Below the pieces are notes generated by a model that had not been told where the DNA came from, ran no database searches, and was given only the letters and a program-made list of their open reading frames with translations. This document shows, piece after piece, positions 11,401-27,024 of a stretch of 64,000 bases of DNA. This DNA comes from Patescibacteria group bacterium (GTDB lineage: Bacteria; Patescibacteriota; Patescibacteriia; UBA10025; JAHIVO01), in NCBI GenBank assembly GCA_041660605.1, contig JBAZWB010000001.1:814503-878502 (forward strand). The letters are read 5' to 3'. A program made the position numbers and the translations under genes. Within the stretch, counting starts at the first letter, position 1; each line of letters starts with the position of its first letter.

Positions 11401-12088
11401 TTCTTCGGTTACCGTGCAGTTGCCGGATGCTAATTCGCCTCAAATACAATTGCCAGGGAATGAATTGGGTCCGACTACTGTACCGCCCCAACCAGTCCAA
11501 ACACCGGTCACCCATCTTATCGTCCAAAAAACCAACAACACTTCCGGACCTGTCAGCGCCGGTACGACTGTCAATTACAAAGTCACCGTCGCTAATGACG
11601 GAGATACCACGGTGAAAAATGTCAGCGCCAAGGATATTCTGACATCTGAAAATTTTCCCAATGTGGACTTGCAAAATAAAAATTGGCAAATGGGAGACAT
11701 TCAACCGGGCGAAATCGTCACGATCGCATATGATGTCGCGTATTCTCCTGTTACTCCGGCTGGCGTGTATGTCAATAATGTTGACCTGACCGGCACTGCC
11801 TCGGATAACAGCAAAGTTGACTATAAGGCATCCAGCATTATTAAAATAAAAAATTCAGTTGTCCCTACTCCAGCCTCAACGCCAAAAATTCTTGGAGCCT
11901 CAACCGATACAGGAAATCCACCTCCGCCGAGCAGCCCAAAACTGGTTATGGTACCTGACCAATCTGCCTCCGGAATAAAATCTCTGCTGCCTTGGTGGTT
12001 AATCGCGATTTCAGTAATTATGCTGTTAACTCTGTACTACATATCATATAATCGCGAACAGAAAAAAACGATAAAAACTGCCCAATAA
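8459..12088 (+). CDS. Giant surface protein: signal peptide, Pro/Thr/Asn-rich low-complexity region, at least five copies of a ~35-aa NTxNNNDGD-TVxTGxA repeat, DUF11-type repeats, and a C-terminal TM anchor. The true start is probably the ATG at 8519.
   Basis: Repeat copies include GNNTANNNDGDATVQAGDAS, GGNTTNNNGGDGTVVTGNANS, GSNTASNNNGDSSVSTGQAI and GNNSASGNSGDGTVISGQAAA. DUF11-like segments include TYTIVASSVGDAPIKNLTLNDEL and NYKVTVANDGDTTVKNVSAKDIL. C-terminal helix WWLIAISVIMLLTLYYISY. No LPxTG motif. Confidence 0.7.
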   Translation: MKGEDKPACPTPLLTLNHKNMKTRSFSPKKIFPKSRLRFLNIVLAFLITFLPFYPAASALADEPTTSAPINCTDILNNGTALQGIPEGCWAQVAVNENFCTNLFSPDNNVIVGLDSMRAYFTQSCLNLNASPTITTTDPLSNVATNDPNSTNPPAITPDSQNITPPTPADQNQVVLDTTTPVNDGSANPQTISQPVDQIPPDQLAFDTSPALTPPPSDPSTGTQTPPADQATDPNTPPPPPDGIVNATQQASSNTTATSQSNTGTNDASNNNGDVNINTGNATAGVDNQNVINTNIVENQPPAPANADVNSGATVNQLGDLVSNITTPGTDNSPMAPDGQIPTDTPPTADSQNNTNQNSGNNPGADNFAGTTQDATVANTVGVNANTGNNTANNNDGDATVQAGDASALANVVNIINTNVVSGNAAQVVIDVADQFVGNINLLDILMSLLGQGGGNNSISSSTAQQASLQNDINASSNTGGNTTNNNGGDGTVVTGNANSAVNLFNIVNTTIEGSNVLISFVNIFGNWIGNLIVPGQGILPAGQQTASVQSNSQQTATVSNTVVTDASTGSNTASNNNGDSSVSTGQAITLAAIYNSLNNNVTGDNMLLIMPNIFGTWNGTIINNPLGGPINPNQPNGYGFYFTNGASGLFGVSSQNTQDATINNNVYVTAVTGNNSASGNSGDGTVISGQAAALANIINIANTHLMGSNWAFTVINLFGNWQGNLVYAYPDLGITNSNGDHTIPDTVTAGDQVTYTLHYQNTGYAAADQIAIQDTFPQQTVLISTSDGGQANNGVITWDAASLAAQSDVQQVSFTVQVPKDLVKEKQTTTITNHVSIFTQTNEVNLDNNVSGSSLTVVAAASPQTNPTEPTTNNPAAKPKLELTKTNDASAPLNPGQSVTYTIVASSVGDAPIKNLTLNDELKNTQGNVSFSKIWNFDNVPVGKNITVTYSLTIPQDEQVGVFDNTVVATADGIKSISASSSVTVQLPDANSPQIQLPGNELGPTTVPPQPVQTPVTHLIVQKTNNTSGPVSAGTTVNYKVTVANDGDTTVKNVSAKDILTSENFPNVDLQNKNWQMGDIQPGEIVTIAYDVAYSPVTPAGVYVNNVDLTGTASDNSKVDYKASSIIKIKNSVVPTPASTPKILGASTDTGNPPPPSSPKLVMVPDQSASGIKSLLPWWLIAISVIMLLTLYYISYNREQKKTIKTAQ

Positions 12089-12804: not shown

Positions 12805-15800
12805 ATGAAAATCAATCTTTTACCGAAAAAACGCGAAATCAAAAAAATTACTTACAAAACTCTGCATTTCCTGACTTTATCCGCCCTGGTCTTTAATATG
12901 ACCATGGTCGGCGTTTTTATTACTCCAAAAGCCGCCAATGCCACAGTTACGCCGCCAACTCCGGTAGCCAACCCGGTACTGACACAAAGTTGTGGACTGG
13001 ATATTGGCCTTTTGGTTGATACTTCAGGGAGTATCGATAGCGGTGAAATGACTAAAATGAAGACCGCCTTAACCAGTTTTGCCAATGCATTTGTCGGCAC
13101 ACCGGCAGTTTTCAGCCTTTCGTCATTTGCCAATGAATCATATTTAAGACGAGCATTTTCCAGAACTCCTTCACAAATTGCTGCAGATATCAGTTCAGAC
13201 ATCCCGTCAGATGGCAATGGCTGGACCAACTGGGATTCAGGGTTAGCTCGCAGTTTTGCCACCTTTGATCCCCGACCGGCAAAACCCAATTTAATTGTTA
13301 TCGCGACAGACGGCAGTCCCAACACTTACGGTTATTTCCCAGATCCGACTGTCGAGCCGACTCATAATCCGGCAAATGCTGATGAATTAGCAGCCGGCCT
13401 TAATCATGCGATTGAACGCGCTAATACAATCAAAACTGCCGGAACAAGAGTTGTCGTACTGGGAATTGGCGATGACGAATCTGATCCATCCACGCCTGCG
13501 CAAAAAGTTGATAAGATGAAACAGATCAGCGGACCAAATGTCGCCTACACTACGGCCGATATAACCACTTCCACGGATGTAATCAAAGTTGAAAACTTCG
13601 ATGGCATTGGCGCGGCACTGAGTGAATTCGTCAACCAACTCTGCGGCGGAAAAATTTTAGTGCAAAAACAATTCGACACAAACGGCGATGGCATTGCTGA
13701 AATTACCGGAAGTTCAGCAGATGCAGCGCTTGCTGGTTATACTTTTGATGTTAATGGCTCCCCTTCAAATCCGACCCCTCAAGTTACCGCCAATACCGGT
13801 TCGTTATCGTTTGATGTTTTGAATGGCACCTACAGCGTTACTGAGACTAACTTGCCGGCCAATACGGAAATAGTAAACGGCAAATGCGTGAATGGCACGC
13901 AAAATGTCGGTACCTTCTCATTGGCGACAAAAACCGTTTCAGGATTGACCATGGGAACTGATGATAATATTTCCTGCACATTTCTGAACAAAAATGTATT
14001 TGGAAAACTAAAAGTTATAAAACAAGTTTCTGGCAGCACTGAACCAGTCTCCAGCTGGAGCATGTCAGTAAAAAAAGGCGGCGTGAATGTCGCCGGCAGC
14101 CCGCAACCCGGCAGCACGACTGGCACAGAATATAATCTTGAACCAGGCACTTATACTGTCGGAGAAACCGGACCTGGCGGATACGCGGCTTCCTTCTCAG
14201 CTAGCTGTCCAAGTGGAACAGCAACAGTTACTGCAGGTCAAACAACAACCTGCACAGTGACCAACACCCGCCAAACCGGAACCCTGATTGTGAAGAAAGT
14301 TGTCTCAGGCAGCACTGAACCGTCTGCCAGCTGGTCAATGCATGTGAAACAGGGAGACCAGGAAGTTTCAGGCAGTCCGGCCGCGGGCACTTCAGCCGGC
14401 ACTTCATATACTTTACCGACTGGAACATATAATATTTCTGAAACCGGCGGTCCGAGCAATTACACGGCCAGCTTTTCTGCTGACTGCGTCAATGGTTCAG
14501 CCACCGTTACTGCCGGCCAAACGGTTACCTGCACGGTAACCAACACGCGGGATACCGGGACAATTGAACTGAAAAAAATCTGGTCAGGTCCTGCCGGTCA
14601 GACAACGCTGAACATCGGCACTACCGCCGGTGCGAGCAATGTTGATACACAGCTGACAGGCGCGGCCGGAGCGCCACCGCTGACAACCGGACAGAACACG
14701 GTTAATACCGGCACTTACTATGTTTCAGAAACCGGCGGTTTATCAAACTACAATGCCGCACTCGTCTGCACTGACAATGGCTCACCAATTACTGTTGGCG
14801 TGAATAATTCCGTTAATGTTACCAAGGGCCATGCGGTTGTCTGCACGTTTACCAACACCCGCCAAACAGGGACACTGATTGTGAAGAAAGTTGTCTCCGG
14901 CAGCACTGAACCGTCTGCCAGCTGGTCAATGCATGTCAAACAAAGCGACCAGGAAGTTTCCGGCAGTCCGGCTGCAGGCACTTCCACCGGCACTTCATAT
15001 ACTTTGCCAACTGGAACATATAATGTTTCAGAAACCGGCGGTCCGAGCAATTTCACGGCCAGCTTCTCTGCTGACTGCGTCAATGGCACGGCCACCGTCA
15101 CTGCCGGGCAGACAGTTACCTGCACGGTAACTAATACCCGGGATACCGGCCACATTACATTTAATAAAATTGTCAGCGGCGGCTCTGCCCATGATAATGA
15201 TTTTACCTTTAGTGTTTACGGGCAAGATTACCACGATGGCGATATAGCTACATTACCGACCGGATCATATGCGCTGACAGAATCAGGCCCAATTGGCTAT
15301 ACTTTATCCGCAGCCAGCGGTGTTTGCAGCTTTAGCCCAAGTGCAGATAATAACGTAACTCTGACTGTCACCAAAGATGGCGGTACCTGCAACATCACCA
15401 ATACTCGCGATACCGGCACTATCACCGTGCATAAGTTTTTACAGCTGCCCGGCGAAGATCCAATCTACGATCCGGAAAACTGGTCATGGACATTATCAAG
15501 CCAGCACGGGAGCGTATCAGGCTTGGCTGGTGGAGATACAAAAACCGTACTGACCATCGACGAATATACAGTGGCTGAGGATACTTCAAATTTTCCTGAA
15601 AATAATTTCGCCACCACCTGGACTTGCAATGCTGTCGGTGATGAGAATACTCCGTTTGCTAACGGCACCGGCACTTCATTCAATTTCACCTTAACCCATC
15701 CGGGCCAGAACGTCGTCTGCACTTTCACCAATGTCCGCGAAACAACGGAGATTACCTTTGATAAAGTTGTTGTCGGCGGCAATGAGGCAGACAGTGCCTG

Positions 15801-17835
15801 GGCCTTTGCCATTGACGGCCAGGGAGCATATCACGAAGGCGATGTAGCAAGCTTACCGACAAACGAGGAATTTGATATTACCGAATCTTCACAGTTTGAT
15901 AATTTATACACTTTAACAGGTGCTTCAGGAATTTGCTCACTGGAAGATGGCCATTTAATTCTGAACACGGATTTTAATGAAGATTCCAGGATTCTTCAAA
16001 GTGAACTGCCCACCTGCATTGTGGAAAATACCCGCAATACCGGCAGCTTAACAGCCCATAAATTTATGGATGCTGACGGCAATCTGGAGACAACCGGAGA
16101 TCAAACCCCGGTTGCCGGCTGGACTATCGAACTCTGGCAGGGTGATAATAAAATTGACACCCAAGTAACCGGAGAAGACGGCAGCTACACCTGGAATATT
16201 CTGCCGACTGGAAATTATGTGGTGAAGGAAATATTCGACTCTGCAGATTATCAGGCTCTCACTGCCACTCAATTTCCGGCTGAAGTTACGACTAACGAAA
16301 ATGCAGAGGTAACTTTTTCCAATTTCAAGAAAATTGATTTAACCGCTTCCAAGTTAATGGACGCCGACGGTTCTGCAAAAACCACTCAAGACCGCTCAAC
16401 AGTTGCGGGTTGGACCATTGAACTCTGGCAAGGTGAGAATCTTCTAGGCTCACAGACCACCAATGAAGAGGGCTTTGTAGTTTTTGAAAACCTCGGGCCT
16501 GGTTCATATATAGTCAAAGAAGTATTCGATTCCAGTAAATACACCGCGCTGACTGAAACCGAAATGCAGGTTACGGCCGTCTCAGGTCAGGACCAAACAG
16601 TTTCATTCGTCAACTTTACCAACGAACCGGCCATTACTCTGGTAAAATCTATTACCAATTCCCATCTGATACCCGGAGGATTCATCAATTACCAGCTTTC
16701 CTACACCAATACCGGTAATTTAGACTTAACAAATGTTAAGCTCGTTGATGATTATCCTCAGCAATATCAGACAATAACTGATCCGGGAACTGGCATAGAC
16801 AATGGCGATACTCTTACCTGGATGATCGGCAATCTGGCAATCGGCGAGACTGGTACGGTGACTTATACAACTTCGATAAAATCCGATGTGCCTGGGAATA
16901 CCAATATCATCAACCTGGCCACCATCACATCAGACCAAACCGATCCCCTGACTGCTACAGCTACTGCCCTTGTTCCGCTTCCGCCGGTAGAGGGCCAGCC
17001 AGTGCTGACTATTACCAAGGCTGTAAATAAACTTTTTGTGAATCCCGGCAATCACGCTATCTACACGGTTACTGTTGCCAATTCTGGCGATGCTGCCGCT
17101 ATTAATGCTGAACTCTCAGACCTACTACCCGCTGGATTTACTTTCACAGAATTTGGTACTAGTACCCACACTTGGGCGCTGGGTGATCTGGCAGCCGGAG
17201 AAACTAAAATAATTACATATGAAGTGACTATCGGTACTGGCGTTACTGCCGGCAATTATGAAAACCTGGCCACTGTGCACGCAGATAACCACGGCAGCCT
17301 CCAGGCCAAAGTAAATCTGGAAGTCAGGGTGCCTAAAGTTCTAGCCGAGGAAGCAGAGCCATTGCTGACCATAGAAAAAACAGCGGACAAGGTATTCATC
17401 AACCAGGGAGATACTGTCACCTATACTATCAAGGTTACCAACCAGGGTGATGAGGACGCTGAGGCAGTAGCGCTGAACGTAAAAACTGAGGATTTCTTAC
17501 CGGCTGGATTCACTTTCGCTGACGGTAAAGTTTCCAAAATCTGGGAGCTTGGCGATATCCGCCCAGGCGAGACAAGAGTAATCACCTATACGGCTAAATC
17601 CGACAAGACTTTACTCCCCGGCAATTACGAGAACTTGGCTTCCGCCTGGGCTGATAATCATGACAAGGTTACAGATTCAGTAAAAGTTGAAGTGCGCAAA
17701 ATTAAAGTACTCGGCGAAGCCTTGCCGACTACCGGCGGTTCCCTGATGTTCTATCTGTATCTGCTGGCAATTGGCTTGATAATCGCTTTTGTCGGTTGGG
17801 TGCTGAAACTGACATTATCAACAAGCCGCGAGTAA
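12805..17835 (+). CDS. Giant LPxTG-type surface adhesin: signal peptide, vWA domain, multiple SpaA/prealbumin-like and Cna B-type domains, DUF11 repeats, and a C-terminal LPTTGG sorting signal
   Basis: vWA MIDAS motif DIGLLVDTSGSID...IATDGSPN. Repeated G-x-Y-x-[IV]-[SG]-ETG...TCTVTNTR modules. Cna B-like TAHKFMDADGN...GWTIELWQ...DGSYTWNILPTGNYVVKE, present twice. DUF11 modules include TYTVTVANSGDAAAINAELSDLLPAGFTF. C-terminus KVLGEALPTTGGSLMFYLYLLAIGLIIAFVGWVLK. Confidence 0.8.
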   Translation: MKINLLPKKREIKKITYKTLHFLTLSALVFNMTMVGVFITPKAANATVTPPTPVANPVLTQSCGLDIGLLVDTSGSIDSGEMTKMKTALTSFANAFVGTPAVFSLSSFANESYLRRAFSRTPSQIAADISSDIPSDGNGWTNWDSGLARSFATFDPRPAKPNLIVIATDGSPNTYGYFPDPTVEPTHNPANADELAAGLNHAIERANTIKTAGTRVVVLGIGDDESDPSTPAQKVDKMKQISGPNVAYTTADITTSTDVIKVENFDGIGAALSEFVNQLCGGKILVQKQFDTNGDGIAEITGSSADAALAGYTFDVNGSPSNPTPQVTANTGSLSFDVLNGTYSVTETNLPANTEIVNGKCVNGTQNVGTFSLATKTVSGLTMGTDDNISCTFLNKNVFGKLKVIKQVSGSTEPVSSWSMSVKKGGVNVAGSPQPGSTTGTEYNLEPGTYTVGETGPGGYAASFSASCPSGTATVTAGQTTTCTVTNTRQTGTLIVKKVVSGSTEPSASWSMHVKQGDQEVSGSPAAGTSAGTSYTLPTGTYNISETGGPSNYTASFSADCVNGSATVTAGQTVTCTVTNTRDTGTIELKKIWSGPAGQTTLNIGTTAGASNVDTQLTGAAGAPPLTTGQNTVNTGTYYVSETGGLSNYNAALVCTDNGSPITVGVNNSVNVTKGHAVVCTFTNTRQTGTLIVKKVVSGSTEPSASWSMHVKQSDQEVSGSPAAGTSTGTSYTLPTGTYNVSETGGPSNFTASFSADCVNGTATVTAGQTVTCTVTNTRDTGHITFNKIVSGGSAHDNDFTFSVYGQDYHDGDIATLPTGSYALTESGPIGYTLSAASGVCSFSPSADNNVTLTVTKDGGTCNITNTRDTGTITVHKFLQLPGEDPIYDPENWSWTLSSQHGSVSGLAGGDTKTVLTIDEYTVAEDTSNFPENNFATTWTCNAVGDENTPFANGTGTSFNFTLTHPGQNVVCTFTNVRETTEITFDKVVVGGNEADSAWAFAIDGQGAYHEGDVASLPTNEEFDITESSQFDNLYTLTGASGICSLEDGHLILNTDFNEDSRILQSELPTCIVENTRNTGSLTAHKFMDADGNLETTGDQTPVAGWTIELWQGDNKIDTQVTGEDGSYTWNILPTGNYVVKEIFDSADYQALTATQFPAEVTTNENAEVTFSNFKKIDLTASKLMDADGSAKTTQDRSTVAGWTIELWQGENLLGSQTTNEEGFVVFENLGPGSYIVKEVFDSSKYTALTETEMQVTAVSGQDQTVSFVNFTNEPAITLVKSITNSHLIPGGFINYQLSYTNTGNLDLTNVKLVDDYPQQYQTITDPGTGIDNGDTLTWMIGNLAIGETGTVTYTTSIKSDVPGNTNIINLATITSDQTDPLTATATALVPLPPVEGQPVLTITKAVNKLFVNPGNHAIYTVTVANSGDAAAINAELSDLLPAGFTFTEFGTSTHTWALGDLAAGETKIITYEVTIGTGVTAGNYENLATVHADNHGSLQAKVNLEVRVPKVLAEEAEPLLTIEKTADKVFINQGDTVTYTIKVTNQGDEDAEAVALNVKTEDFLPAGFTFADGKVSKIWELGDIRPGETRVITYTAKSDKTLLPGNYENLASAWADNHDKVTDSVKVEVRKIKVLGEALPTTGGSLMFYLYLLAIGLIIAFVGWVLKLTLSTSRE

Positions 17836-18128: not shown

Positions 18129-18207
18129 GAATAACTACCACCCCCCCCCTTGACAGACCCCCTAGTATTAGGCTAAGGTATGTGATTAACAAGTGCATAA
18201 CTTTTGA

Positions 18208-18237: not shown

Positions 18238-18297
18238 TTCAGCACCAAAACAAAAAATTTATCAACCGAAACCCTAATAAATAAGGAGAAAACAACT

Positions 18298-21200
18298 ATG
18301 CATTTAATCAATGCGAAATCAGCCCGACATTACACCCCCTTGGTCGTAGCGGCGGTCTTTGTCGTGGGTTTAGTGAGTATTTTATTTATTCCGAAACCAG
18401 CATTTGCTGCGAGAAATCTAACAAACGCTACCGTTAATGACACAAATGCGGTAACAGTTGGCCCAAATGAATCCATAAATGTTTGGCTTGAGGTAACTAC
18501 AAGTAGAAATTTGAATAATCCAATGGACGAAAATGACTGGAAGTCAACAAGCTATAAAATCGGTAATAACGCGTGGGTATGCTTGGACACACCAGATCAT
18601 ACGGTTTCCGGGACATATTCTGAAACTTTTTCCATCACTGCGCCTGGAACAGCTGGTGTCTATAATTTTAAATTAAAAGCCTGGAAAAATGATGATTGTT
18701 CCCATGGGGCAAGCAATGAAAAAGTTATGAACAACGCAATAACCGTAGCTAATCCTGTTTGCGGTGACGGTGATATTAATCAAGCTTCCGAAGAATGCGA
18801 TGACGGAAATATAACGGGCGGCGATGGCTGTAGCTCTACCTGTACAATCGAACCTACCACCGGCACGCTCCGCCTGGTTAAAAATACTGTTGGTGGAGAT
18901 GATACTTTCTCCATTTTATGGACAACCTGTGATTTCAATGTTCTCCCCGGCTTCTGTATGACCGCGTTCCCAGTTTCGACCAGCTCAATCACGACAAGCG
19001 GTGGCACCAATTACATTGATTATGAAGTTCCTGCAGGCTGGTATACTGCCAGCGAGGACGACTCGACATTACCAGTCGGCTGGGTCCGTACAGATACATC
19101 ATGCGGCGGATTCAGTGGGCTGTACGTGGCCGCAGGCCAAACAACTACCTGCACAATTACTAATACTTACACTCCCCCATGCGGAAATGGGACAGTAGAT
19201 CCAGGTGAACAATGCGATGACTACAATAACCAAAACGGCGATGGGTGCGATGCAAATTGTAACATTGAAATACCCGACCAGGATGCCGACGGCATTTCTG
19301 ATTCTTCTGATAATTGCCCAAAAGTTGCCAATCCAGACCAGGCAGACAGAGATAATGACGGCATAGGAGATTATTGCGATAATTGCCAATCTATATCTAA
19401 TGCCGATCAGGCTGATAACGACGGTGATTATTACGGTAATGTTTGTGATAATTGCCAAAATGTGTACAACCAGACTCAGGCTGATTCTGATAACGATGGC
19501 GTTGGTGATTCCTGCGATAATTGCCCTACAATGACGAATCCAGATCAATCAGAATCTGACGGAGATAAAATCGGTAATACCTGCGATAATTGCCCCCTGG
19601 CATTCAATCCTGATCAGGCTGATGCGAATGGAAACGGAGTTGGTAATGCTTGTGATATTGTTTGCGGTAACTATGTCGTAGAACCCGGCGAACAATGTGA
19701 CGACGGGAATATTCAAAATGGCGATGGCTGCAGCGCCACTTGCACCATAGAACTGCCCGATCAGGATCATGATGGTATTTCTGATGCTTCTGATAATTGT
19801 CGCTATGTAGCCAATCCCGACCAGGTGGATACTGATGCGGACGGTCTCGGTGATTATTGCGACAATTGCAAAATGATTCCAAATGATGACCAGGCAGACA
19901 GTGATGGAGATTTAATAGGAGAAGTATGCGATAACTGCGCGTATACTGCCAATAGTGACCAGTCGGATGATGACGTTGATGGCCTGGGCAATGCCTGCGA
20001 TAACTATAACTGTATTATTACCGGGGCAGAAGATTGCAATTACGGGTATGATAATGATTGCGATGGATTTGTTGATTGTGCCGATAGTGATTGTAACGAT
20101 GATCCGATCTGCCAGCCAATCGTTTGCGGCAACGGTATTACCGAAACCGGAGAGCAATGCGATGACGGTAACACCACAAATATTGATGGCTGTTCTTCAA
20201 CCTGCCAAACAGAAAATGTTTGCACTCCAGGCTGCTACTCTGTCTGGGTCGGAGATCAATACTGTGATGAATCATGCAATAATGCCTCATGCAATTGGGA
20301 TGGCGGCGACTGCGGTCCAACCTGCGGCAATGATATTACCGAAACTCCGGAGGAATGCGACGGAAACTCACAATCGTGTACAACCGCCCAAGGATACGCC
20401 GGTTCGCAAAATTGTAATATGCCAATTAGAGATGCCTTCACAATAACATCTGCTGTACAAAGTTATTGCACCTGGAACCCCTGCATTACCCAGGAATTCT
20501 GTGGTGATAATACTATAAACGGTACGGAACAATGCGACGATGGTAATACAGTTGATGGCGACGGTTGCAGTGCCGCTTGCACTACAGAAGCACCAACTTG
20601 CCCGAATCTATTCTTCTCTGAATACATTGAAGGCAACGGTAATAATAAAGCACTGGAAATTTATAACCCGACCGCCAGCGGCGTAAATCTGAACGGTTAT
20701 GCTGTGGTGATTTATTCCAATGGCTCAACCACCCCCAGCCAAACAATTGCGCTTTCAAATACCACTTTGGGAACGGGTAATGTATATGTACTTGCTCATC
20801 CTGCTGCGGATGCGGGTATAACAAGCCACGCTAACCAACTTTCTGGCAATATAACTTTTAATGGAGACGATGCAGTTATTCTGAAAAATGGGTCAACAAT
20901 AATTGATGCTATCGGCCGAATCGGCTATCAACCAGGCTCTGGTGAATGGGGAACCGGCCTTACCAGCACAAAAGATAATACTCTGGTCAGAAAATGCGGA
21001 ATCAGTTGTGGTGATATGAATGGATCTGATTCATTCAATCCTGCTACTGAATGGGACGGCTATGCAATCAATACATATTCCTACTTAGGCTCGCATACTC
21101 TGGCATGCCCTGTCTGTGGTGACGATATATTAAACGGTGATACTGAACAGTGCGACGATGGGAATCTGGTTGATGGCGACGGTTGCTCAGCAAAATGTAC

Positions 21201-23496
21201 CTGGGAACCAGCCACCATTAATGCACAAAAGATTGTTTGCAATGATGAATCTTTACTGCCAAATTGGGGAACGGGTGGCCCAGATATCACCTCTTCAACA
21301 GCCGCTGACTATGTTGCCAGCCATGAGGGTTGCCGCTTAGTTGACTGGACTTTTCAATGGAGACCAGATGGAACAAATCCATACAACCCGGGAGATAATA
21401 CTGGCGAGGCAAGTGGTGCATGGTCAACTCCATTCAGCGCTTCAGCTGACATTTCCACAGATATCTCAAAAGTCTGGCTGCGCGAAGTGTGGAATTCTGA
21501 ATATATTCCCTTTACCTATGAATCGGCAGATGGAAATTTAAATAATGTAAGTGCAGAATTTTACTGCAACGCAGATGTGTTAAATTACGATAACTTAGAA
21601 TGGATAAATACCCAGCCTGGCCAGGAATATTACTGCGTAGGATTTAATGCACTCGCGGCTCGCTGCGGCGATGGCACTGTAAATCAGGAATCCGAACAAT
21701 GCGATGGTGATGCGGATAAAGCATGCACCACGCCTGATGGCTACGCTGGCACCCAAACCTGCAATATGCCTATCAAAGGCGACTTCGTAGCTGTTTTTAG
21801 GATAGAAAATTCCTGCACCTGGAACCCTTGCGATCCGACTGAGTTCTGCGGCGACGGGATCGTGAACGGCACTGAAGAGTGTGACGGAGATGCCGGCATT
21901 ACCGGCGAAGAGTTCTGCTCAGACTCATGCACCATTGAAACAACCAGCTTTGAACTCACAAAATCAGTCCTGGTAAATGGAGAACTGTCAAGCACCGCCA
22001 ATGAAGGTGATACGCTCACCTACACTATCACTGCAAAAAATACCGGCACTACTGACGAGTCTAATCTGGTCATTAAAGACACTACGCCGACCAATACGAC
22101 ATTGGTTCCTGGAGAACTAGGATATCAGGTCAATGGCGATGAATTAACCTGGGACGCATTCAACCTCGACGCAGGAGACACCCACGAAGTTACCTTCAAT
22201 GTGACCGTCAACGGCAGCTTACCAGAAGGAACCACGGAAATCACCAATGAAGCTACGCTTTGGCAGTTTGAGGGAGCCAACTTAGAGGTTGCATCCCCTG
22301 TCAGCTTTTTGCATAAGGTTTTGGGAATCAAAACTGCAAACGCACAAGCTGCTCCGTTGGTCTTGAGAGCTACTTCAAATTTAGTCCTGACCACTGTCGT
22401 AATTGGAGTCAAACCGTTTTGCGGCGACAATATGGTTAACCAGGAATTCGAGCAGTGCGACGGCACCGACGGTGTTGGAGAGCACCAGCAATGCAATGCC
22501 GATTGCCGTCTGGAAAATCTTCCTTATTGCGGCGATGGGATTAAGAACGGTACTGAGGAATGCGATACTACTGACGGAATTACCGGCGACCAGACCTGCT
22601 CAGAGACCTGCACCATCGTTGAGCCTGAACCAACGCTGAATCCAGTACTCTCAATCATTAAGTCAGTAGATAAAACAACTACCAATCCCGGCACAACGCT
22701 GGTTTACACAGTTACTGTTTCCAATTCCGGCAGTGTTGAGGCTACGGACGTAGTAATGACTGACGCTTTACCGGCCGGATTTACATTTGCTAATGCCGAC
22801 GGTAGTAATTCCGGTGATACGAATAAGACCTGGAATTTAGGCGACCTGGCTGCTGGTGGTGATACTACTGTTACTTATAACGTGTTGGTAGATTCAAATG
22901 CCGGATCTAGAATATATACAAACACTGCTACGGCTACTGCTAGTAACTTCACTGGTTCAGTCACTGCCAAGGCAGACGTTAACGTAATTATAACGAAAGT
23001 GCTCGGAGAAACTGCTTCGCAACTGACCATTACCAAAAAAGCTGATAAAGCCTTCACCAACCCGGCAGGCAGAATCACCTACACAGTTACCGTTACGAAT
23101 AATGGCGACGCGCCGGCTATGAACGCGGTACTGGTAGATAAATTACCCGCAGGATTGATCTATGCAGGTACCAAGGACCAAACTACGGCTACTTGGAAGC
23201 TTGGCGATATCGCACCGACAGAAACAATCACAAAGACATATCAAGCTACGGTGTTACCAAAAACAGAACCAGGTAAATACGTTAATACCGCTTCGGTTTC
23301 GGCTGACGATGTAGCCAAGATATCAGCTAATGCCACAGTAGAGGTGCGGAAAGTGGCAGTCCTGGGCGCGGAAACAGACGAAGATGCGGCTTTACCGGTA
23401 ACCGGTATGAACATTATTCAGTATCTCTACATTATCGGTGCCGGACTAGTGGTGATCTTCTCCGGTTGGGCTCTGAGACTGACGATTTCCAGATAA
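18298..23496 (+). CDS. Giant mosaic LPxTG-type surface protein: signal peptide, Myxococcus cysteine-rich repeats, thrombospondin type-3 Ca-binding repeats, an LNR-like repeat, a lamin-tail domain, DUF11 repeats, and a C-terminal LPVTG sorting signal
   Basis: Start MHLINAKSA...AFA (signal peptide); the ORF track's upstream extension from 18208 overlaps the promoter. Cysteine-rich repeats such as CGDGxINQxSEECDDGNxxxGDGCSxTC, about 12 copies. TSP3: DQDADGISDSSDNCPKVANPDQADRDNDGIGDYCDNC and similar. LNR-like: CYSVWVGDQYCDESCNNASCNWDGGDCG. Lamin-tail domain: FFSEYIEGNGNNKALEIYNPT...VILKNGSTIIDAIGRIG. DUF11 modules include LVYTVTVSNSGSVEATDVVMTDALPAGFTF. C-terminus LPVTGMNIIQYLYIIGAGLVVIFSGWALRL. 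Confidence 0.8.
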   Translation: MHLINAKSARHYTPLVVAAVFVVGLVSILFIPKPAFAARNLTNATVNDTNAVTVGPNESINVWLEVTTSRNLNNPMDENDWKSTSYKIGNNAWVCLDTPDHTVSGTYSETFSITAPGTAGVYNFKLKAWKNDDCSHGASNEKVMNNAITVANPVCGDGDINQASEECDDGNITGGDGCSSTCTIEPTTGTLRLVKNTVGGDDTFSILWTTCDFNVLPGFCMTAFPVSTSSITTSGGTNYIDYEVPAGWYTASEDDSTLPVGWVRTDTSCGGFSGLYVAAGQTTTCTITNTYTPPCGNGTVDPGEQCDDYNNQNGDGCDANCNIEIPDQDADGISDSSDNCPKVANPDQADRDNDGIGDYCDNCQSISNADQADNDGDYYGNVCDNCQNVYNQTQADSDNDGVGDSCDNCPTMTNPDQSESDGDKIGNTCDNCPLAFNPDQADANGNGVGNACDIVCGNYVVEPGEQCDDGNIQNGDGCSATCTIELPDQDHDGISDASDNCRYVANPDQVDTDADGLGDYCDNCKMIPNDDQADSDGDLIGEVCDNCAYTANSDQSDDDVDGLGNACDNYNCIITGAEDCNYGYDNDCDGFVDCADSDCNDDPICQPIVCGNGITETGEQCDDGNTTNIDGCSSTCQTENVCTPGCYSVWVGDQYCDESCNNASCNWDGGDCGPTCGNDITETPEECDGNSQSCTTAQGYAGSQNCNMPIRDAFTITSAVQSYCTWNPCITQEFCGDNTINGTEQCDDGNTVDGDGCSAACTTEAPTCPNLFFSEYIEGNGNNKALEIYNPTASGVNLNGYAVVIYSNGSTTPSQTIALSNTTLGTGNVYVLAHPAADAGITSHANQLSGNITFNGDDAVILKNGSTIIDAIGRIGYQPGSGEWGTGLTSTKDNTLVRKCGISCGDMNGSDSFNPATEWDGYAINTYSYLGSHTLACPVCGDDILNGDTEQCDDGNLVDGDGCSAKCTWEPATINAQKIVCNDESLLPNWGTGGPDITSSTAADYVASHEGCRLVDWTFQWRPDGTNPYNPGDNTGEASGAWSTPFSASADISTDISKVWLREVWNSEYIPFTYESADGNLNNVSAEFYCNADVLNYDNLEWINTQPGQEYYCVGFNALAARCGDGTVNQESEQCDGDADKACTTPDGYAGTQTCNMPIKGDFVAVFRIENSCTWNPCDPTEFCGDGIVNGTEECDGDAGITGEEFCSDSCTIETTSFELTKSVLVNGELSSTANEGDTLTYTITAKNTGTTDESNLVIKDTTPTNTTLVPGELGYQVNGDELTWDAFNLDAGDTHEVTFNVTVNGSLPEGTTEITNEATLWQFEGANLEVASPVSFLHKVLGIKTANAQAAPLVLRATSNLVLTTVVIGVKPFCGDNMVNQEFEQCDGTDGVGEHQQCNADCRLENLPYCGDGIKNGTEECDTTDGITGDQTCSETCTIVEPEPTLNPVLSIIKSVDKTTTNPGTTLVYTVTVSNSGSVEATDVVMTDALPAGFTFANADGSNSGDTNKTWNLGDLAAGGDTTVTYNVLVDSNAGSRIYTNTATATASNFTGSVTAKADVNVIITKVLGETASQLTITKKADKAFTNPAGRITYTVTVTNNGDAPAMNAVLVDKLPAGLIYAGTKDQTTATWKLGDIAPTETITKTYQATVLPKTEPGKYVNTASVSADDVAKISANATVEVRKVAVLGAETDEDAALPVTGMNIIQYLYIIGAGLVVIFSGWALRLTISR

Positions 23497-23513
23497 TTTC
23501 AGAAATTTCAATA

Positions 23514-23549
23514 CAAAAAGACCCTGCGGTTTTACCGAGGGTCTTTTTG
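23514..23549. terminator. Rho-independent terminator of gene 18298..23496, nearly identical to the terminator at 17863
   Basis: AAAAAGACCC-tgcggttttaccga-GGGTCTTTTT. Confidence 0.75.
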
Positions 23550-23626
23550 GTTTATCCGCTCTGTCACATCGACCGAAGTGGAGATGTCTCTAAGATAATT
23601 ACATACTACCTTTTTGGTATTTAAAA

Positions 23627-24432: not shown

Positions 24433-27024
24433 ATGAAAATTAGTGTAAAAATGCCAAAAAGTCTTCGCATTTTAGTGCCGATAATGATTTTTAGCATGGC
24501 ACTAATATTTGCTCCAACTCTGGCAAAGGCAGCCACAACATACACAGTTGACGCTGACTTTGACCAAGGCTCACTTATTAATGTAGTGCATACGCCCAGC
24601 GATCAGCTCCAACTGACTGACCAGGTCGAAGCTTTTAACTTCATTTGGGTAGCCAATTCGGGCGAAGGCACAATTGTTAAAATTAATACGGATACCGGCG
24701 CTATCGTCGGCGAGTACCGTACTTCACCGAATGGCACCTATGGCAACCCCTCCCGCACCACCGTCGACAAAGATGGCAGTGTCTGGGTAGGAAACCGCCA
24801 AGCGGTCAGCGGTAACAATGCCGCTATTACCCACGTCGGCTTACTCGAGAACGGTCAGTGCGAAGACCGCAACGGTAACGGCATAATTGATACTTCGACC
24901 GGCTTGAATGATGTAAAGGACTGGACTGATGAGAGCGGAACTCGCGGGGTCGCTACTGCCCAGGACGAATGTATTGTCCATTTCACTCCAATTGAATCCT
25001 ATGATGCCAGGCATATTTCAGTCGACTCGGCAAATAACATCTGGGTCAGCGGTATCAGTAACCGCACTTTCTTCTATATTGTTGGCGGGAAATATAATAT
25101 ACCGAATTCCGGCACTATCGTACGGACTGAAACAGGCATCGGCTATGGCGGCTATGGCGGCTTAATTTCAGGTGATGTCATTTGGTCAGCCAATCCATTA
25201 CTTCGCTGGGATACCAACTACCCTCTATCAGATGCCGCACACCACACAACTTACAGCCATGACAGCTACGGACTCTGCGAAGACAGCCAGGGAAACGTCT
25301 GGAATACTTCCCTCTCTGGCGGTGTAATTAGGAAATTCAATCCGGCTGGTGATTTGCTAGGCACCTATTCTTACGGCGCTTCCAATGCCCAAGGCTGTGT
25401 CGTTGACGGCAATGACGACGTCTGGGTAGCTCACTCGCTGTGGGGTAACAGCGTTGGCCATTTATTAAACGACGGCACGCTCGTTGGTGTTATACCGGTC
25501 GGCAATGGTCCGACTGGAGTAGCGGTAGACCACAACGGCAAAATTTGGGTCACCCATTATTCTTCCCCCTATACAGTCAAAAGGATAGACCCAACGCTTG
25601 GTGATATCGGCGGTGGCGGTGCCACGATTGGTGCAGTCGATTATACTTCAGTTGATCTTGGTGGCAGCCTCTACAACTATTCTGATATGACTGGCAGCAC
25701 TCTTTCCGGAAAAGCCGAGAGTGGCACATGGACTGTTGTTTATGATTCCCAGGCTACCGGTCCTATCGGTGATAATATTTCCTGGACTGCTGATGTGCCG
25801 AATGACGGCAATTTAACCGTCTCCATAGCGCTCAGTGACGACGGTGCCACCTATGGTATTCCGGCAACTGTAACGAACGGCCAGGATATTTCAGCGTTAA
25901 GCGCCCGATATTATAAAATCACGGTCAGCTTTGAACGAGGCGGCCGGGGTGTTAGCCCGATACTTTATGACCTCTCCCTTTCTTCACCTTACTGCGGTGA
26001 CGGAATAGCGAATCAGGAAACTGAAGAGTGCGACGGCACCGACGGCGTTGGCGGGCACCAGCAATGCACCCGTAACTGTACACTAGAAAACCTCCCTTAC
26101 TGCGGTGACGGCATTAAAAATGCCAATGAACAATGCGACGGATCTGACGGAGTAAACGCCGGCGAAGTTTGCACTGCGGAGTGTACAGTAACTGCAGTTG
26201 ATGCCAACGGACCAATCCTGACAATTACCAAAACAGTGCGGGATTCTAAGGTGGCTCCAACCGGAACCGCCACTTACACGGTTACGGTTACCAATACCGG
26301 TGCAGCCACGGCGGAAAACGTCAAACTGCATGATATACTTCCTATAAATTTCACTTTTGCTGATAATGGCATCGGCACCCACGACTGGGATCTAGGCGAT
26401 TTAACAGCCAATGAATCAACTACGGTTAGCTATGTTGTAAATATCAGCGAGAATGCCAACCAAGGTACTTATGAAAACATTGCTGTTGCCTCAGCCGACA
26501 ATTATGGAAATGTTTCCACCAAAGTGCCGGTACAGATAGAGTTTAAGACGATTGGGAAAAAAGCACCGTCATTAACCATCACCAAGACAGCAGATAAAAG
26601 CCTGGCTAATCCCGCCAGTACGGTCGGATATACTGTTACTATTGCCAATAATGGCGATGCTCCGGCGTTTAATGTTGTTTTGAAGGACACACTGCCAGCC
26701 GGTTTTGTTTTTGACGATGGCGCTACAACGAGAACCTGGACATTGGGCGATCTGGCACCGACAGAGAAAAAAATTATCACCTACTTTGCCAAAGTTGATG
26801 CCAGTGCTGCTGCGGCTATCTATGATAATGTCGCCGTTGTTACAGCGGATAATGTAGATGATATTTCTGCCGTGGCAACGGTGGAAGTCCGCACCGTACA
26901 GGTATTAGGCGCGGAAACTGATCCGGAAGCAGTATTACCGGTTACCGGCGGTGGATTCGAAATAACTTTATTAGTTGCATTTACATTAATCAGTGCCGGG
27001 GCTTTATTGATCGTTAAGCGCTAA
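24433..27024 (+). CDS. Large LPxTG-type surface protein: signal peptide, beta-propeller-like repeats, Myxococcus cysteine-rich repeats, DUF11 repeats, and a C-terminal LPVTGG sorting signal
   Basis: Propeller-like repeats DGSVWVGN, NNIWVSG, GNVWNTS, DDVWVAHS, GKIWVTH. Cysteine-rich repeats CGDGIANQETEECDGTDGVGGHQQCTRNC and CGDGIKNANEQCDGSDG...CTAEC. DUF11 modules TATYTVTVTNTGAATAENVKLHDILPINFTF and TVGYTVTIANNGDAPAFNVVLKDTLPAGFVF. C-terminus QVLGAETDPEAVLPVTGGGFEITLLVAFTLISAGALLIVKR. Confidence 0.8.
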   Translation: MKISVKMPKSLRILVPIMIFSMALIFAPTLAKAATTYTVDADFDQGSLINVVHTPSDQLQLTDQVEAFNFIWVANSGEGTIVKINTDTGAIVGEYRTSPNGTYGNPSRTTVDKDGSVWVGNRQAVSGNNAAITHVGLLENGQCEDRNGNGIIDTSTGLNDVKDWTDESGTRGVATAQDECIVHFTPIESYDARHISVDSANNIWVSGISNRTFFYIVGGKYNIPNSGTIVRTETGIGYGGYGGLISGDVIWSANPLLRWDTNYPLSDAAHHTTYSHDSYGLCEDSQGNVWNTSLSGGVIRKFNPAGDLLGTYSYGASNAQGCVVDGNDDVWVAHSLWGNSVGHLLNDGTLVGVIPVGNGPTGVAVDHNGKIWVTHYSSPYTVKRIDPTLGDIGGGGATIGAVDYTSVDLGGSLYNYSDMTGSTLSGKAESGTWTVVYDSQATGPIGDNISWTADVPNDGNLTVSIALSDDGATYGIPATVTNGQDISALSARYYKITVSFERGGRGVSPILYDLSLSSPYCGDGIANQETEECDGTDGVGGHQQCTRNCTLENLPYCGDGIKNANEQCDGSDGVNAGEVCTAECTVTAVDANGPILTITKTVRDSKVAPTGTATYTVTVTNTGAATAENVKLHDILPINFTFADNGIGTHDWDLGDLTANESTTVSYVVNISENANQGTYENIAVASADNYGNVSTKVPVQIEFKTIGKKAPSLTITKTADKSLANPASTVGYTVTIANNGDAPAFNVVLKDTLPAGFVFDDGATTRTWTLGDLAPTEKKIITYFAKVDASAAAAIYDNVAVVTADNVDDISAVATVEVRTVQVLGAETDPEAVLPVTGGGFEITLLVAFTLISAGALLIVKR

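What the first reader, a model, noticed from the sequence alone, without database searches (positions are those of the whole stretch)
18298..23496. A mosaic giant protein combining Myxococcus Cys-rich repeats, thrombospondin-3 repeats, an LNR-like repeat and a lamin-tail domain
About 12 copies of the CGDG-x-[IV]-x4-E-x-CDDGN-x3-GDGCS-x-x-C repeat, two runs of TSP3-type Asp-rich calcium-binding repeats (D-x-D-x-DG-x-x-D-x-x-DNC-P-x-x-x-N-x-DQ-x-D), and a C-x-x-W-x-GD-x-x-CD-x-x-CN-x-x-x-C-x-W-DGGDC segment that matches the Lin-12/Notch repeat consensus (about 20230-20316). There is also a clear lamin-tail domain (FFSEYIEGNGNNKALEIYNP...DDAVILKNGSTIIDAIGRIG, about 20599-20935). These are animal-ECM-like calcium-binding modules stacked in one bacterial surface protein and terminated by DUF11 and LPVTG. 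The LNR-like and LTD modules have not been characterised in this context.
Basis: partly seen in the sequence, partly recalled or inferred. Interest (0 to 1): 0.65.

Follow-up and report, generated by a model that had tools for sequence, protein, structure and literature searches.

The report
Calcium-module surface adhesin of a Patescibacterium
This is a real 1732-residue cell-wall-anchored surface fibre protein of an ultra-small (Patescibacteria) bacterium, built from known calcium-binding and stalk modules. Its one unusual part is a genuine Notch-type LNR repeat, a module that is rare in prokaryotes, so the protein is an interesting but not revolutionary member of the fibrillar-adhesin class.

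Summary
Window 18298-23496 (+) is one intact ORF of 1732 aa. Profile searches confirm each module:
- 10-11 TIGR02232/DUF4215 Cys-rich repeats
- 10 thrombospondin type-3 units in two runs
- a lamin-tail domain (47-52 bits against a cut-off of 34.3)
- three DUF11 domains (now named CLIPPER)
- an LPVTG sorting signal

The LNR-like segment (aa 642-671) scores 41.3 bits against Pfam Notch/LNR (cut-off 21.2) when scanned alone. It keeps all six Cys and the acidic positions. Its best match among solved structures is the Notch repeats of human GNPTAB, followed by Notch1-3 and PAPP-A.

The exact protein is already deposited as [quoted passage not shown], with PF00066 and PF00932 already precomputed. 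It has no full-length homologue, but its modules recur shuffled in a few other patescibacterial LPXTG proteins, including a DUF4215-LNR-DUF4215 cassette.

Canonical LNRs are rare in prokaryotes: a strict DNA pattern hit 3 of 185,579 species genomes.

Best reading: a sortase-anchored fibrillar adhesin. A CLIPPER stalk carries an acidic, disulfide-knotted, calcium-stiffened rod of small modules alternating with beta-sandwich domains. It is one of three neighbouring proteins that share the stalk and anchor but carry different heads.

It is a new member of a known kind, of moderate interest.

The parts
18298..23496 (+). Complete CDS, 1732 aa. The mature form is about 175 kDa with pI about 4.05 and 90 Cys.
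   Evidence: Identical to P0001, a Patescibacteria MAG protein, and found on independent assemblies.
18298..18408 (+). N-terminal signal peptide: a basic n-region, a 20-aa hydrophobic core and AFA|A.
   Evidence: Read directly from the sequence. No predictor was run.
18409..18759 (+). N-terminal Ig/PKD-like domain (aa 38-154), the candidate distal 'head'.
   Evidence: Weak K319L-like PKD hit, E 7e-4, below cut-off. 43% identical to P0082 aa 324-437.
18760..18843 (+). DUF4215/TIGR02232 repeat 1 (aa 155-182).
18844..19179 (+). SpaA/DUF5979-like prealbumin-fold domain (aa 183-294).
   Evidence: Sub-threshold DUF5979 (E 7e-4) and SpaA_2 hits. 35% identical to P0036. K/E/N motifs (LVKNT, EVPAGWY, TITNTY) read from the sequence.
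19180..19263 (+). DUF4215 repeat 2 (aa 295-322).
19270..19662 (+). TSP3 run 1: six 23-aa units, the last degenerate.
   Evidence: PF02412. 69-nt periodic repeat family D1. Units listed.
19663..19746 (+). DUF4215 repeat 3 (aa 456-483). Together with TSP3 run 2 it forms an old internal duplication of 19195-19455 (71% nt identity).
   Evidence: family D2.
19753..20004 (+). TSP3 run 2: four 23-aa units.
20005..20124 (+). Cys/Asp-rich linker (CDNYNC...NDCDGFVDCADSDC), with no Pfam assignment.
   Evidence: No family at E<=10. Conserved after TSP3 runs in P0082, P0097 and L079.
20125..20208 (+). DUF4215 repeat 4 (aa 610-637), the upstream arm of the LNR cassette.
20221..20310 (+). LNR (Lin-12/Notch repeat), aa 642-671, CTPGCYSVWVGDQYCDESCNNASCNWDGGDC.
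   Evidence: PF00066 41.3 bits against cut-off 21.2. A profile of five patescibacterial LNRs hits GNPTAB, Notch1-3 and PAPP-A chains in the PDB. 57-68% identical to LNRs in P0036 (two copies), P0082 and P0097.
20323..20499 (+). Six-Cys 59-aa module (aa 676-734): the first half of a DUF4215 followed by C-TT..GYAG.Q.CNMPI...CTWNPC.
   Evidence: No Pfam hit. Its only relative among all sequences fetched is the second copy in this protein.
20500..20583 (+). DUF4215 repeat (aa 735-762), the best-scoring TIGR02232 copy.
20593..21102 (+). Lamin-tail domain with a C-terminal extension (aa 766-935).
   Evidence: PF00932 47.0/51.9 bits against cut-off 34.3. Similar to the ExeM N-terminus over aa 770-933. 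56% identical to P0097 aa 317-482.
21115..21198 (+). DUF4215 repeat (aa 940-967).
21199..21663 (+). Rare beta-sandwich domain (aa 968-1122), probably a divergent CnaB-type pilin-like domain with a candidate isopeptide triad K978/E1063/N1117.
   Evidence: No Pfam hit. Only three homologues found: P0101, P0121 and P0122. AF2 pLDDT 69.8, pTM 0.70, with K in the first strand, E in a central strand and N in the last strand. Foldseek against the PDB is not significant, but its top hits are Gram-positive pilins and adhesins.
21664..21846 (+). Second copy of the six-Cys module (aa 1123-1183).
21847..21933 (+). Variant DUF4215-like repeat (aa 1184-1212).
21934..22287 (+). CLIPPER (DUF11) domain 1 (aa 1213-1330).
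   Evidence: PF01345, DUF7927 and DUF7619. TIGR04226 isopeptide-domain hit at 1219-1321.
22420..22617 (+). Two variant DUF4215-like repeats (aa 1375-1440). The same pair occurs in the neighbouring gene at 25993 and 26101.
22630..23367 (+). CLIPPER (DUF11) domains 2 and 3 (aa 1445-1690), the membrane-proximal stalk.
   Evidence: PF01345 best stretch 1451-1550, DUF7507 1448-1556. K/D/N positions conserved in all three copies.
23392..23493 (+). Cell-wall sorting signal: LPVTG, a hydrophobic helix and RLTISR.
12805..17835 (+). Neighbouring LPTTG protein (VWA + SpaA + CLIPPER). Its C-terminal 300 aa are 44% identical to the target's.
24433..27024 (+). Neighbouring LPVTG protein (SGL-type beta-propeller + DUF4215-like pair + CLIPPER). 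Its C-terminal 350 aa are 48.6% identical to the target's.
8459..12088 (+). Fourth CLIPPER-containing surface protein of the cluster. It has no LPXTG and ends in a C-terminal TM helix.

Best explanation
The gene encodes a sortase-substrate fibrillar surface protein, most likely an adhesin, of a Patescibacteria (CPR) bacterium.

Shown by the sequence:
- an N-terminal signal peptide and a C-terminal LPVTG/TM/basic sorting signal
- a membrane-proximal stalk of three CLIPPER (DUF11) domains
- a 1200-residue distal part in which small disulfide-rich acidic modules alternate with four beta-sandwich domains. The small modules are 11 DUF4215 repeats, 10 TSP3 units, one LNR, two novel six-Cys modules and a Cys/Asp linker. 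The beta-sandwich domains are an Ig/PKD-like domain, a SpaA-like domain, the LTD and a CnaB-like domain.

Inferred mechanism:
- After Sec export the protein is cross-linked to peptidoglycan by a sortase encoded elsewhere in the genome.
- About 40 disulfides, plus Ca2+ bound by the TSP3 Asp clusters, the LNR and probably the acidic DUF4215 repeats, stiffen the chain into a long, protease-resistant rod.
- Isopeptide bonds in the CLIPPER and Cna-like domains make the base mechanically strong.
- The rod holds the distal beta-sandwich domains (the N-terminal domain and the LTD) away from the cell, where they can contact a partner cell or matrix. This would suit an episymbiotic lifestyle.

The DUF4215 repeats act as universal connectors between modules. 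The same modules, including a DUF4215-LNR-DUF4215 cassette, are shuffled among a small set of patescibacterial LPXTG proteins. Three adjacent genes share one stalk-and-anchor unit under different heads. This looks like a family of exchangeable-head adhesins. The binding partner is unknown.
For: - Module identities come from profile HMMs.
- The LPVTG sorting signal is present, and also in two neighbours.
- CLIPPER/DUF11 has been shown experimentally to be an isopeptide-bonded CnaA-like stalk domain typical of fibrillar adhesins (PMC12617251). K/D/N positions are conserved in all three copies here.
- The TSP3 units show exact C-type Asp spacing.
- The LNR keeps six Cys plus D653, D656, D667 and D670, and aligns end to end with the GNPTAB and Notch LNRs.
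- 82 of the 90 Cys lie in the distal part, and the mature pI is about 4.05.
- Modules recur in a mosaic pattern in P0036, P0082, P0097, P0101 and L079, with the cassette order conserved.
- The C-terminal 300-350 aa are 44-49% identical to genes B and D, which have different N-terminal halves.
- The domain at aa 968-1122 is modelled as a beta-sandwich with K, E and N in the first, central and last strands, and its top (weak) fold hits are pilins.
- In Myxococcus TraA, Cys-rich repeats are proposed to form a stalk that displays a recognition domain (PMC6372800).
- The genomic context is core chromosome of a Patescibacteria MAG.
Against: - No ligand-binding domain of known specificity was found. 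'Adhesin' rests on architecture alone.
- No sortase gene lies in the 64-kb window, and the rest of the genome was not examined.
- Ca2+ binding, the disulfides and the isopeptide bonds are all inferred from family membership.
- The AF2 model of the LNR cassette failed (pLDDT 37), so the fold was not confirmed.
- Expression of the gene is unknown.
- The fold assignment of aa 968-1122 is not statistically significant (best E 0.0097, TM about 0.3-0.4).
Confidence: 0.65

Rival explanations
1. It is a subunit of a sortase-assembled pilus. Genes B (a VWA tip-adhesin-like protein), C (this protein) and D would be polymerised head to tail by a pilin-specific sortase.
For: Three adjacent LPXTG proteins lie on one strand, and one has a VWA domain plus SpaA domains like the tip pilins RrgA and SpaC. 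There are hits to the RrgB-type isopeptide domain. The weak fold hits of aa 968-1122 are pilins.
Against: None of the four proteins has a YPK(N) pilin motif or an E-box. There is no sortase in the window. At 860-1730 aa the proteins are far larger than shaft pilins. Cna-type domains are equally typical of monomeric fibrillar adhesins (PMC12617251).
Confidence: 0.1
2. It is mainly a structural or ion-handling envelope component: a Ca2+-binding acidic matrix or spacer layer around the cell, not a specific adhesin.
For: The mature protein is extremely acidic and rich in Asp, Asn and Cys (pI about 4.05, D 10.3%, N 9.3%). It has about 10 TSP3 units plus other Ca-binding modules. No recognised ligand-binding head was found.
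Against: It is a single-copy mosaic with no full-length homologues, whereas structural envelope proteins are usually conserved. Sibling genes carry VWA and beta-propeller heads on the same stalk, which points to recognition functions.
Confidence: 0.15
3. The LNR, LTD and TSP3 modules are eukaryote-derived mimicry modules, acquired by horizontal transfer to engage a eukaryotic (protist or animal) host.
For: LNRs are overwhelmingly eukaryotic. There are 2799 representative proteins, and the top hits include Mastigamoeba and other protist-like sequences. The best PDB match is human GNPTAB. LNRs are rare and patchy in prokaryotes.
Against: The LNR sits in a cassette flanked by DUF4215 repeats. The TSP3 and DUF4215 relatives retrieved are metagenomic or labelled bacterial MAGs. 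Similar LNRs occur in an archaeal MAG and in Dehalococcoidales proteins from free-living settings. A single LNR without an HD/NOD domain cannot act like a Notch NRR. There is no evidence of a eukaryotic host.
Confidence: 0.07
4. It is an artefact: an assembly chimera, eukaryotic contamination or a non-coding ORF.
For: None beyond the unusual composition.
Against: The identical protein occurs on three contigs from independent assemblies (NCBI GCA_041665905.1 at 338 kb, Logan SRR6484324, and a 960-kb contig) with the same neighbours. The reading frame is uninterrupted for 5.2 kb, with profile hits along its whole length. Bacterial housekeeping genes flank it.
Confidence: 0.01

Closest known systems
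Fibrillar adhesins with CLIPPER (DUF11) stalks, e.g. Acinetobacter silvestris B9T28_05395 (PMC12617251)
   Same: Signal peptide, distal non-stalk domains, a stalk of CLIPPER domains with a K/D/N triad, and a C-terminal anchoring signal.
   Different: Only three CLIPPER domains here. Most of the length comes from Cys-rich Ca-binding modules instead. The anchor is LPXTG/sortase rather than OmpA-like. No recognised adhesive head domain.
Myxococcus TraA/TraB and other TIGR02232 / TSP3 surface proteins (NCBIfam MtsC, a cell-cell cohesion protein)
   Same: Cys-rich acidic repeats proposed to form a stalk that displays a recognition domain, and TSP3 repeats in a partner surface protein (PMC6372800). 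Partial match to the MtsC model, 169 bits.
   Different: Far below the MtsC cut-off (169 against 350 bits), so it is not an orthologue. It has LPXTG rather than a MYXO-CTERM anchor and no PA14 domain. Whether TraA's repeats are the same family as TIGR02232 was not tested here.
Eukaryotic LNR modules: the Notch1-3 NRR, PAPP-A, and the GNPTAB Notch repeats
   Same: Six-Cys pattern, the W/F-x-[GD]-D-x-x-C-D and C-N-x3-C-x-W-D-G-G-D-C motifs, and a profile score above threshold.
   Different: There is a single LNR, not three in tandem, and no HD/NOD domain. It is flanked by DUF4215 repeats and sits in a bacterial cell-wall protein. The first Cys gap is x3 rather than x4-5.
Patescibacterial mosaic LPXTG proteins P0036, P0082, P0097 and P0101, and the metagenomic ORF L079
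   Same: They share individual modules at 35-68% identity: the N-terminal domain, SpaA-like domain, TSP3 run plus Cys/Asp linker, DUF4215-LNR-DUF4215 cassette, LTD and the 968-1122 domain.
   Different: None shares the overall order or more than about half the length. The 59-aa six-Cys module is unique to this protein.
Bacterial LTD-containing extracellular proteins such as the ExeM nuclease
   Same: The LTD plus extension aligns to ExeM residues 25-174.
   Different: There is no nuclease domain, and the score is 102 bits against a 1300-bit cut-off. Only the LTD is shared.

Membership tests
LNR / Notch domain (PF00066) | Profile score above Pfam's gathering threshold. | tested here: met
   41.3 bits against 21.2, E 2e-10, for the isolated segment. 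Also listed in the precomputed annotation. The whole-protein scan did not list it.
LNR / Notch domain (PF00066) | Six cysteines with LNR spacing and conserved acidic/Asn Ca-ligand positions. | tested here: met
   Spacing is C-x3-C-x8-C-x3-C-x4-C-x6-C. D653, D656, N661, D667 and D670 are conserved in five patescibacterial LNRs and align with the GNPTAB and Notch LNRs.
LNR / Notch domain (PF00066) | LNR fold with three disulfides around one Ca2+. | tested here: inconclusive
   The AF2 model of aa 606-767 had pLDDT 37 and was unusable.
LNR / Notch domain (PF00066) | Ca2+-dependent folding. | not testable with these tools
   Needs refolding of a recombinant fragment with and without Ca2+.
Notch-type negative regulatory region | Three tandem LNRs packed on an HD (NOD/NODP) domain. 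| tested here: not met
   There is a single LNR and no NOD/NODP hit.
Lamin tail domain (PF00932) | Profile score above the gathering threshold. | tested here: met
   47.0 bits (whole protein) and 51.9 bits (segment) against 34.3.
Thrombospondin type 3 repeat (PF02412) | Profile score above threshold and 23-residue Asp-rich periodicity (DxDxDGxxDxxDNC...N..Q). | tested here: met
   46.9 bits against 25, six stretches. Ten 69-nt periodic units. The register is shown.
TIGR02232 / DUF4215 cysteine-rich acidic repeat | Profile score above threshold, in multiple copies. | tested here: met
   240.8 bits against 20.8, 10 stretches. PF13948 71.9 bits against 27.
CLIPPER (DUF11, PF01345) isopeptide stalk domain | Profile score above threshold. 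| tested here: met
   145.1 bits against 24.6, three stretches.
CLIPPER (DUF11, PF01345) isopeptide stalk domain | Lys-Asp-Asn isopeptide triad. | tested here: inconclusive
   K, D and N occur at corresponding motif positions in all three copies. No alignment to the solved CLIPPER structure was obtained: phmmer against the PDB found nothing.
Sortase substrate (cell-wall sorting signal) | LPXTG, then a hydrophobic segment, then a basic tail at the C-terminus. | tested here: met
   LPVTG-MNIIQYLYIIGAGLVVIFSGWAL-RLTISR.
Sortase substrate (cell-wall sorting signal) | A cognate sortase is encoded in the genome. | not tested
   No TLxTC motif in any real ORF of the 64-kb window. The rest of the genome was not available.
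Sortase-assembled pilin | Pilin motif (YPKN Lys), an E-box and an adjacent pilin-specific sortase. | tested here: not met
   None of the four cluster proteins has a YPK or E-box motif. There is no sortase nearby.
Fibrillar adhesin (architecture class) | Stalk repeats plus a surface anchor plus an adhesive domain. | tested here: inconclusive
   Stalk and anchor are met. No domain of known adhesive specificity was found, only candidates: the N-terminal Ig-like domain and the LTD.

The most novel reading that the evidence does not exclude
The LNR is not a purely eukaryotic module. A DUF4215-LNR-DUF4215 cassette, and related LNR arrays, circulate among surface proteins of Patescibacteria, of archaeal MAG proteins with a TasA/camelysin-type N-terminus, and of Dehalococcoidales. 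This would reflect either a prokaryotic origin of the Notch LNR or repeated inter-domain transfer into ultra-small, surface-dependent prokaryotes, where the LNR serves as a Ca2+-locked rigid joint in adhesin rods.
Probability: 0.2. Interest if true: 0.6.

Novelty: new member of a known kind. Interest (0 to 1): 0.35.

Why it matters
Patescibacteria have genomes of about 1 Mb and are thought to live attached to other cells. This organism spends about 5 kb on this one protein and about 18 kb on a cluster of four surface proteins. That makes the cluster a concrete candidate for the attachment apparatus.

The protein also gives a clean prokaryotic example of a canonical LNR. The strict motif occurs in only 3 of 185,579 species genomes. 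The Notch-evolution literature I could read treats the LNR as eukaryote-wide and does not mention prokaryotes (PMC2770060). This example could inform the origin of the Notch module.

The protein also offers small, Ca-dependent, disulfide-locked modules for structural or protein-engineering work.

It does not reveal a new mechanism. Every module belongs to a known family, and the architecture fits the established fibrillar-adhesin pattern.

Tried and rejected
- A database search with the 42-aa LNR peptide returned nothing because the word index needs longer queries. One search was wasted.
- The AF2 model of the DUF4215-LNR cassette (aa 606-767, 5-sequence alignment) gave pLDDT 37 and was discarded.
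- phmmer of the CLIPPER region against PDB sequences found nothing, so the isopeptide triad could not be aligned to 9IFR.
- A six-frame search for a sortase TLxTC motif in the window found only a spurious hit.
- The pilus hypothesis was checked and rejected: no YPK or E-box motifs.
- A recent-duplication or recombination origin for the repeats was rejected. The DNA repeats are only 60-87% identical.
- A mobile-island origin was not supported. GC content is ordinary and the flanks are housekeeping genes.
- Cluster look-ups of top LNR hits gave almost no taxon names, apart from Mastigamoeba for P0123. The prokaryotic share of the 2799 LNR proteins could therefore not be quantified.
- Literature searches for prokaryotic LNRs, for DUF4215 and for CPR sortase adhesins found nothing directly relevant.
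Full report
**What is there**

The region holds one long ORF on the + strand, 18208-23496. The first ATG is at 18298, giving 1732 codons. That protein is identical over its full length to database protein P0001, which NCBI names [quoted passage not shown]. It is found with the same neighbours on NCBI assembly GCA_041665905.1 (338-kb contig) and in a Logan assembly of SRR6484324, and one search lists a longest contig of 960 kb. It is therefore a real chromosomal gene of a CPR bacterium, not an artefact. The flanking genes are ordinary housekeeping genes: ribosomal protein L10, YceG, a nucleotidyl transferase, purine biosynthesis, BacA and Fpg. GC content is unremarkable.

**Check of the observation**

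- **Cys-rich repeats.** TIGR02232 gives 10 stretches (E 4.5e-73) and Pfam DUF4215 gives 6. By direct reading there are 11 copies. Seven are canonical CG[DN]G-x-E-x-CDDGN-x3-GDGCS-x2-C. Four are variants.
- **TSP3.** PF02412 passes (46.9 bits against 25). At the DNA level it resolves into 6 + 4 units of exactly 69 nt. Their register, Q-x-D-x-D-x-D-G-x-G-D-x-C-D-N-C-x4-N-x-D, is the C-type TSP3 calcium-site spacing.
- **LTD.** It scores 47.0 bits in the whole protein and 51.9 bits in isolation, against a cut-off of 34.3. It continues into a region similar to the N-terminus of the ExeM nuclease.
- **Stalk and anchor.** Three DUF11 domains (E 1.3e-42) and an LPVTG, hydrophobic helix and RLTISR sorting signal end the protein.

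**The LNR**

The whole-protein hmmscan did not list PF00066. The isolated 36-aa segment scored 41.3 bits against a cut-off of 21.2, E 2e-10. The precomputed annotation of P0001 also carries PF00066.

The Cys spacing is C-x3-C-x8-C-x3-C-x4-C-x6-C. D653, D656, D667 and D670 occupy the conserved acidic positions.

I built a profile from this LNR and four others from related proteins. It hit the Notch repeats of human GlcNAc-1-phosphotransferase (7s05, 63.5 bits, aligned from the first to the last Cys), then the Notch1/2/3 NRR structures and PAPP-A. By sequence, membership is secure.

The fold itself could not be confirmed. The AF2 model of the cassette was unusable (pLDDT 37).

**How unusual is a prokaryotic LNR?**

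- A strict DNA pattern for C-N-x3-C-x-W-D-G-G-D-C found only three loci in one genome for each of 185,579 prokaryotic species.
  - One is an archaeal MAG protein with a camelysin/TasA-type N-terminus, MopE-type metal motifs and two LNRs.
  - One is a small Patescibacteria protein with TSP3, then DUF4215, then LNR.
  - One is a Dehalococcoidales lipoprotein with ten tandem LNRs.
  - The sequences are, and Pfam confirms the archaeal and Dehalococcoidales proteins.
- The same pattern hit at least 119 metagenome contigs. Many of these are GNPTAB-like sequences that are probably eukaryotic. A few carry the patescibacterial cassette (L033, L079, L093) or the archaeal type (L051, L080, L092).
- An exhaustive profile search of 1.84 billion representative proteins found 2799 LNR proteins. 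The top ones mostly look protist-like; P0123, for example, is from Mastigamoeba.

So LNRs are rare and patchy in prokaryotes, but this is not a one-off. In the literature I could search, LNR is discussed only for eukaryotes (PMC2770060).

**The unassigned parts**

- aa 38-154 is weakly PKD/Ig-like.
- aa 183-294 is weakly SpaA/DUF5979-like.
- aa 968-1122 has no Pfam hit and only three homologues. AF2 models it as a beta-sandwich (pLDDT 69.8, pTM 0.70). Invariant K978, E1063 and N1117 lie in the first, a central and the last strand. It carries an "REV..GY.PF" motif reminiscent of CnaB domains; this resemblance is from my own knowledge and was not tested. Foldseek hits are not significant, but the top ones are nearly all Gram-positive pilins and adhesins. 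I read it as a divergent Cna-type stalk domain. This is inference.
- Two 59-61-aa six-Cys modules (aa 676-734 and 1123-1183) have no relative in anything fetched.
- A Cys/Asp linker after the second TSP3 run recurs in P0082, P0097 and L079.

**Architecture and relatives**

No protein matches over the full length. The best non-self hits cover less than half. Individual modules reappear at 35-68% identity in a handful of proteins. P0101 is labelled Patescibacteria. P0036 is labelled only an LPXTG-anchored protein. P0082, P0097, P0121 and P0122 carry no taxon label.

The order [TSP3 run]-[Cys/Asp linker]-DUF4215-LNR-DUF4215 is conserved in P0082 and L079. The DUF4215-LNR-DUF4215 core is conserved in all of them. 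DUF4215 repeats flank nearly every globular module, so they act as connectors.

Within the gene, the repeats are old: 60-87% nucleotide identity, with one 261-nt block duplicated at 71%.

The gene sits in a same-strand cluster of four CLIPPER-containing surface proteins (8459-27024). Its last 300-350 residues (a DUF4215-like pair, two CLIPPER domains and the LPXTG anchor) are 48.6% identical to the downstream gene, which has a beta-propeller head. They are 44% identical to the upstream gene, which has a VWA + SpaA head.

**Most likely function**

DUF11 was recently characterised as CLIPPER. It is a CnaA-like domain with an intramolecular isopeptide bond that confers thermostability and protease resistance, and it typically forms the stalks of fibrillar adhesins (PMC12617251). 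The three copies here keep K/D/N at the corresponding motif positions.

Other features point the same way:
- the sorting signal
- the very acidic composition (mature pI about 4.05)
- 82 of the 90 Cys in the distal part
- about ten TSP3 calcium sites plus an LNR

Together these fit best with a sortase-anchored fibrillar adhesin. Its distal rod would be stiffened by disulfides and Ca2+, and it would display beta-sandwich domains (the N-terminal domain and the LTD) for contact with a partner surface. The Myxococcus TraA "Cys-rich stalk" hypothesis is a functional precedent (PMC6372800).

Shown: module identities, the sorting signal, and the mosaic relationships. Inferred: anchoring by a sortase (none lies in the window), Ca2+ binding, isopeptide bonds, rod shape, and adhesion itself.

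**Rivals**

- A sortase-assembled pilus is unlikely. There are no YPK or E-box motifs and no nearby sortase.
- A purely structural or Ca-buffering envelope role cannot be excluded.
- Mimicry of a eukaryotic host is possible but unsupported.
- Artefact is excluded.

**Novelty and score**

All modules belong to known families, and the protein and its Pfam hits are already public. The architecture fits the fibrillar-adhesin class, so this is a new member of a known kind.

The points of interest are:
- a canonical LNR in a bacterial cell-wall protein, and its recurring cassette
- the exchangeable-head adhesin cluster in a reduced CPR genome
- two small uncharacterised modules

Interest is about 0.35. 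The most novel reading not excluded is that prokaryotic LNR cassettes bear on the origin of the Notch LNR (probability about 0.2).

Noticed in passing
window 8459-27024 (+): A same-strand cluster of four CLIPPER/DUF11 surface proteins. Three have LPxTG anchors and share a 44-49% identical C-terminal stalk-and-anchor unit under different heads: VWA+SpaA, the Ca-module mosaic, and an SGL-type beta-propeller. The first (8459-12088) has no LPXTG and ends in a TM helix.
   Followed up: partly
window 23627-24199 (-): A DUF559 / MTES_1575 endonuclease-like ORF lies on the opposite strand, wedged between two of the adhesin genes. Gene callers give it 109-153 aa, while the ORF list gives 190 aa.
   Followed up: no
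window 6685-7488 (+) and 27267-28862 (+): Two CAP-domain (cysteine-rich secretory protein family) proteins flank the adhesin cluster. The second also has a weak Ig-like hit and a hydrophobic C-terminus.
   Followed up: no
window 20323-20499 and 21664-21846 (+): Two copies of a 59-61-aa six-Cys module (CG.D...E.CDG...C-TT..GYAG.Q.CNMPI...C-TWNPC). It has no Pfam match and no relative among about 280 proteins and 124 loci fetched. It looks like a DUF4215 repeat with a roughly 40-aa replacement.
   Followed up: partly
window 21199-21663 (+): A rare domain (aa 968-1122) for which only three homologues were found (P0101, P0121, P0122). Invariant K/E/N in the first, central and last strands suggests an unrecognised CnaB-type isopeptide domain family.
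   Followed up: partly
L003 (Dehalococcoidales MAG), also L067, L090, L116: A small lipoprotein-like protein made almost entirely of ten tandem LNRs (PF00066, 308 bits).
   Followed up: partly
L001, L051, L080, L092 (archaeal MAG and metagenome contigs): Proteins with a camelysin/TasA-type N-terminus, MopE-type metal-binding motifs and C-terminal LNR pairs. L092 also has a DUF4215 repeat and an LTD-like C-terminus. The same module toolkit therefore appears in a second lineage.
   Followed up: partly
L018, L019, L046, L103, L111, L120 (metagenome contigs, GC 0.28-0.36): Short ORFs (158-288 aa) with two LNRs. The one sequence read in full (L018) continues into a TM helix and a Cys-rich tail. The origin is unknown and could be a picoeukaryote, a virus or a bacterium.
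   Followed up: no
window 18298-23493, method note: hmmscan of the whole 1732-aa protein did not report PF00066 at E<=1. The isolated 36-aa segment scored 41.3 bits. Short Cys-rich domains inside biased repeat proteins can be lost in whole-protein scans.
   Followed up: yes
window 5992-6624 (-): A protein-L-isoaspartate O-methyltransferase gene lies a few kb upstream of this cluster of very Asn/Asp-rich proteins. This is probably a coincidence.
   Followed up: no
window 37096-37854 (-): A small ORF with weak matrixin/reprolysin-like zinc-metalloprotease hits, below the cut-offs.
   Followed up: no
window 18001-22000: GC skew turns positive only across the distal half of this gene (0.03-0.04, against about -0.05 to -0.17 in nearly all other 2-kb bins). 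A possible cause is the abundance of Gly and Asp codons, but this was not checked.
   Followed up: no
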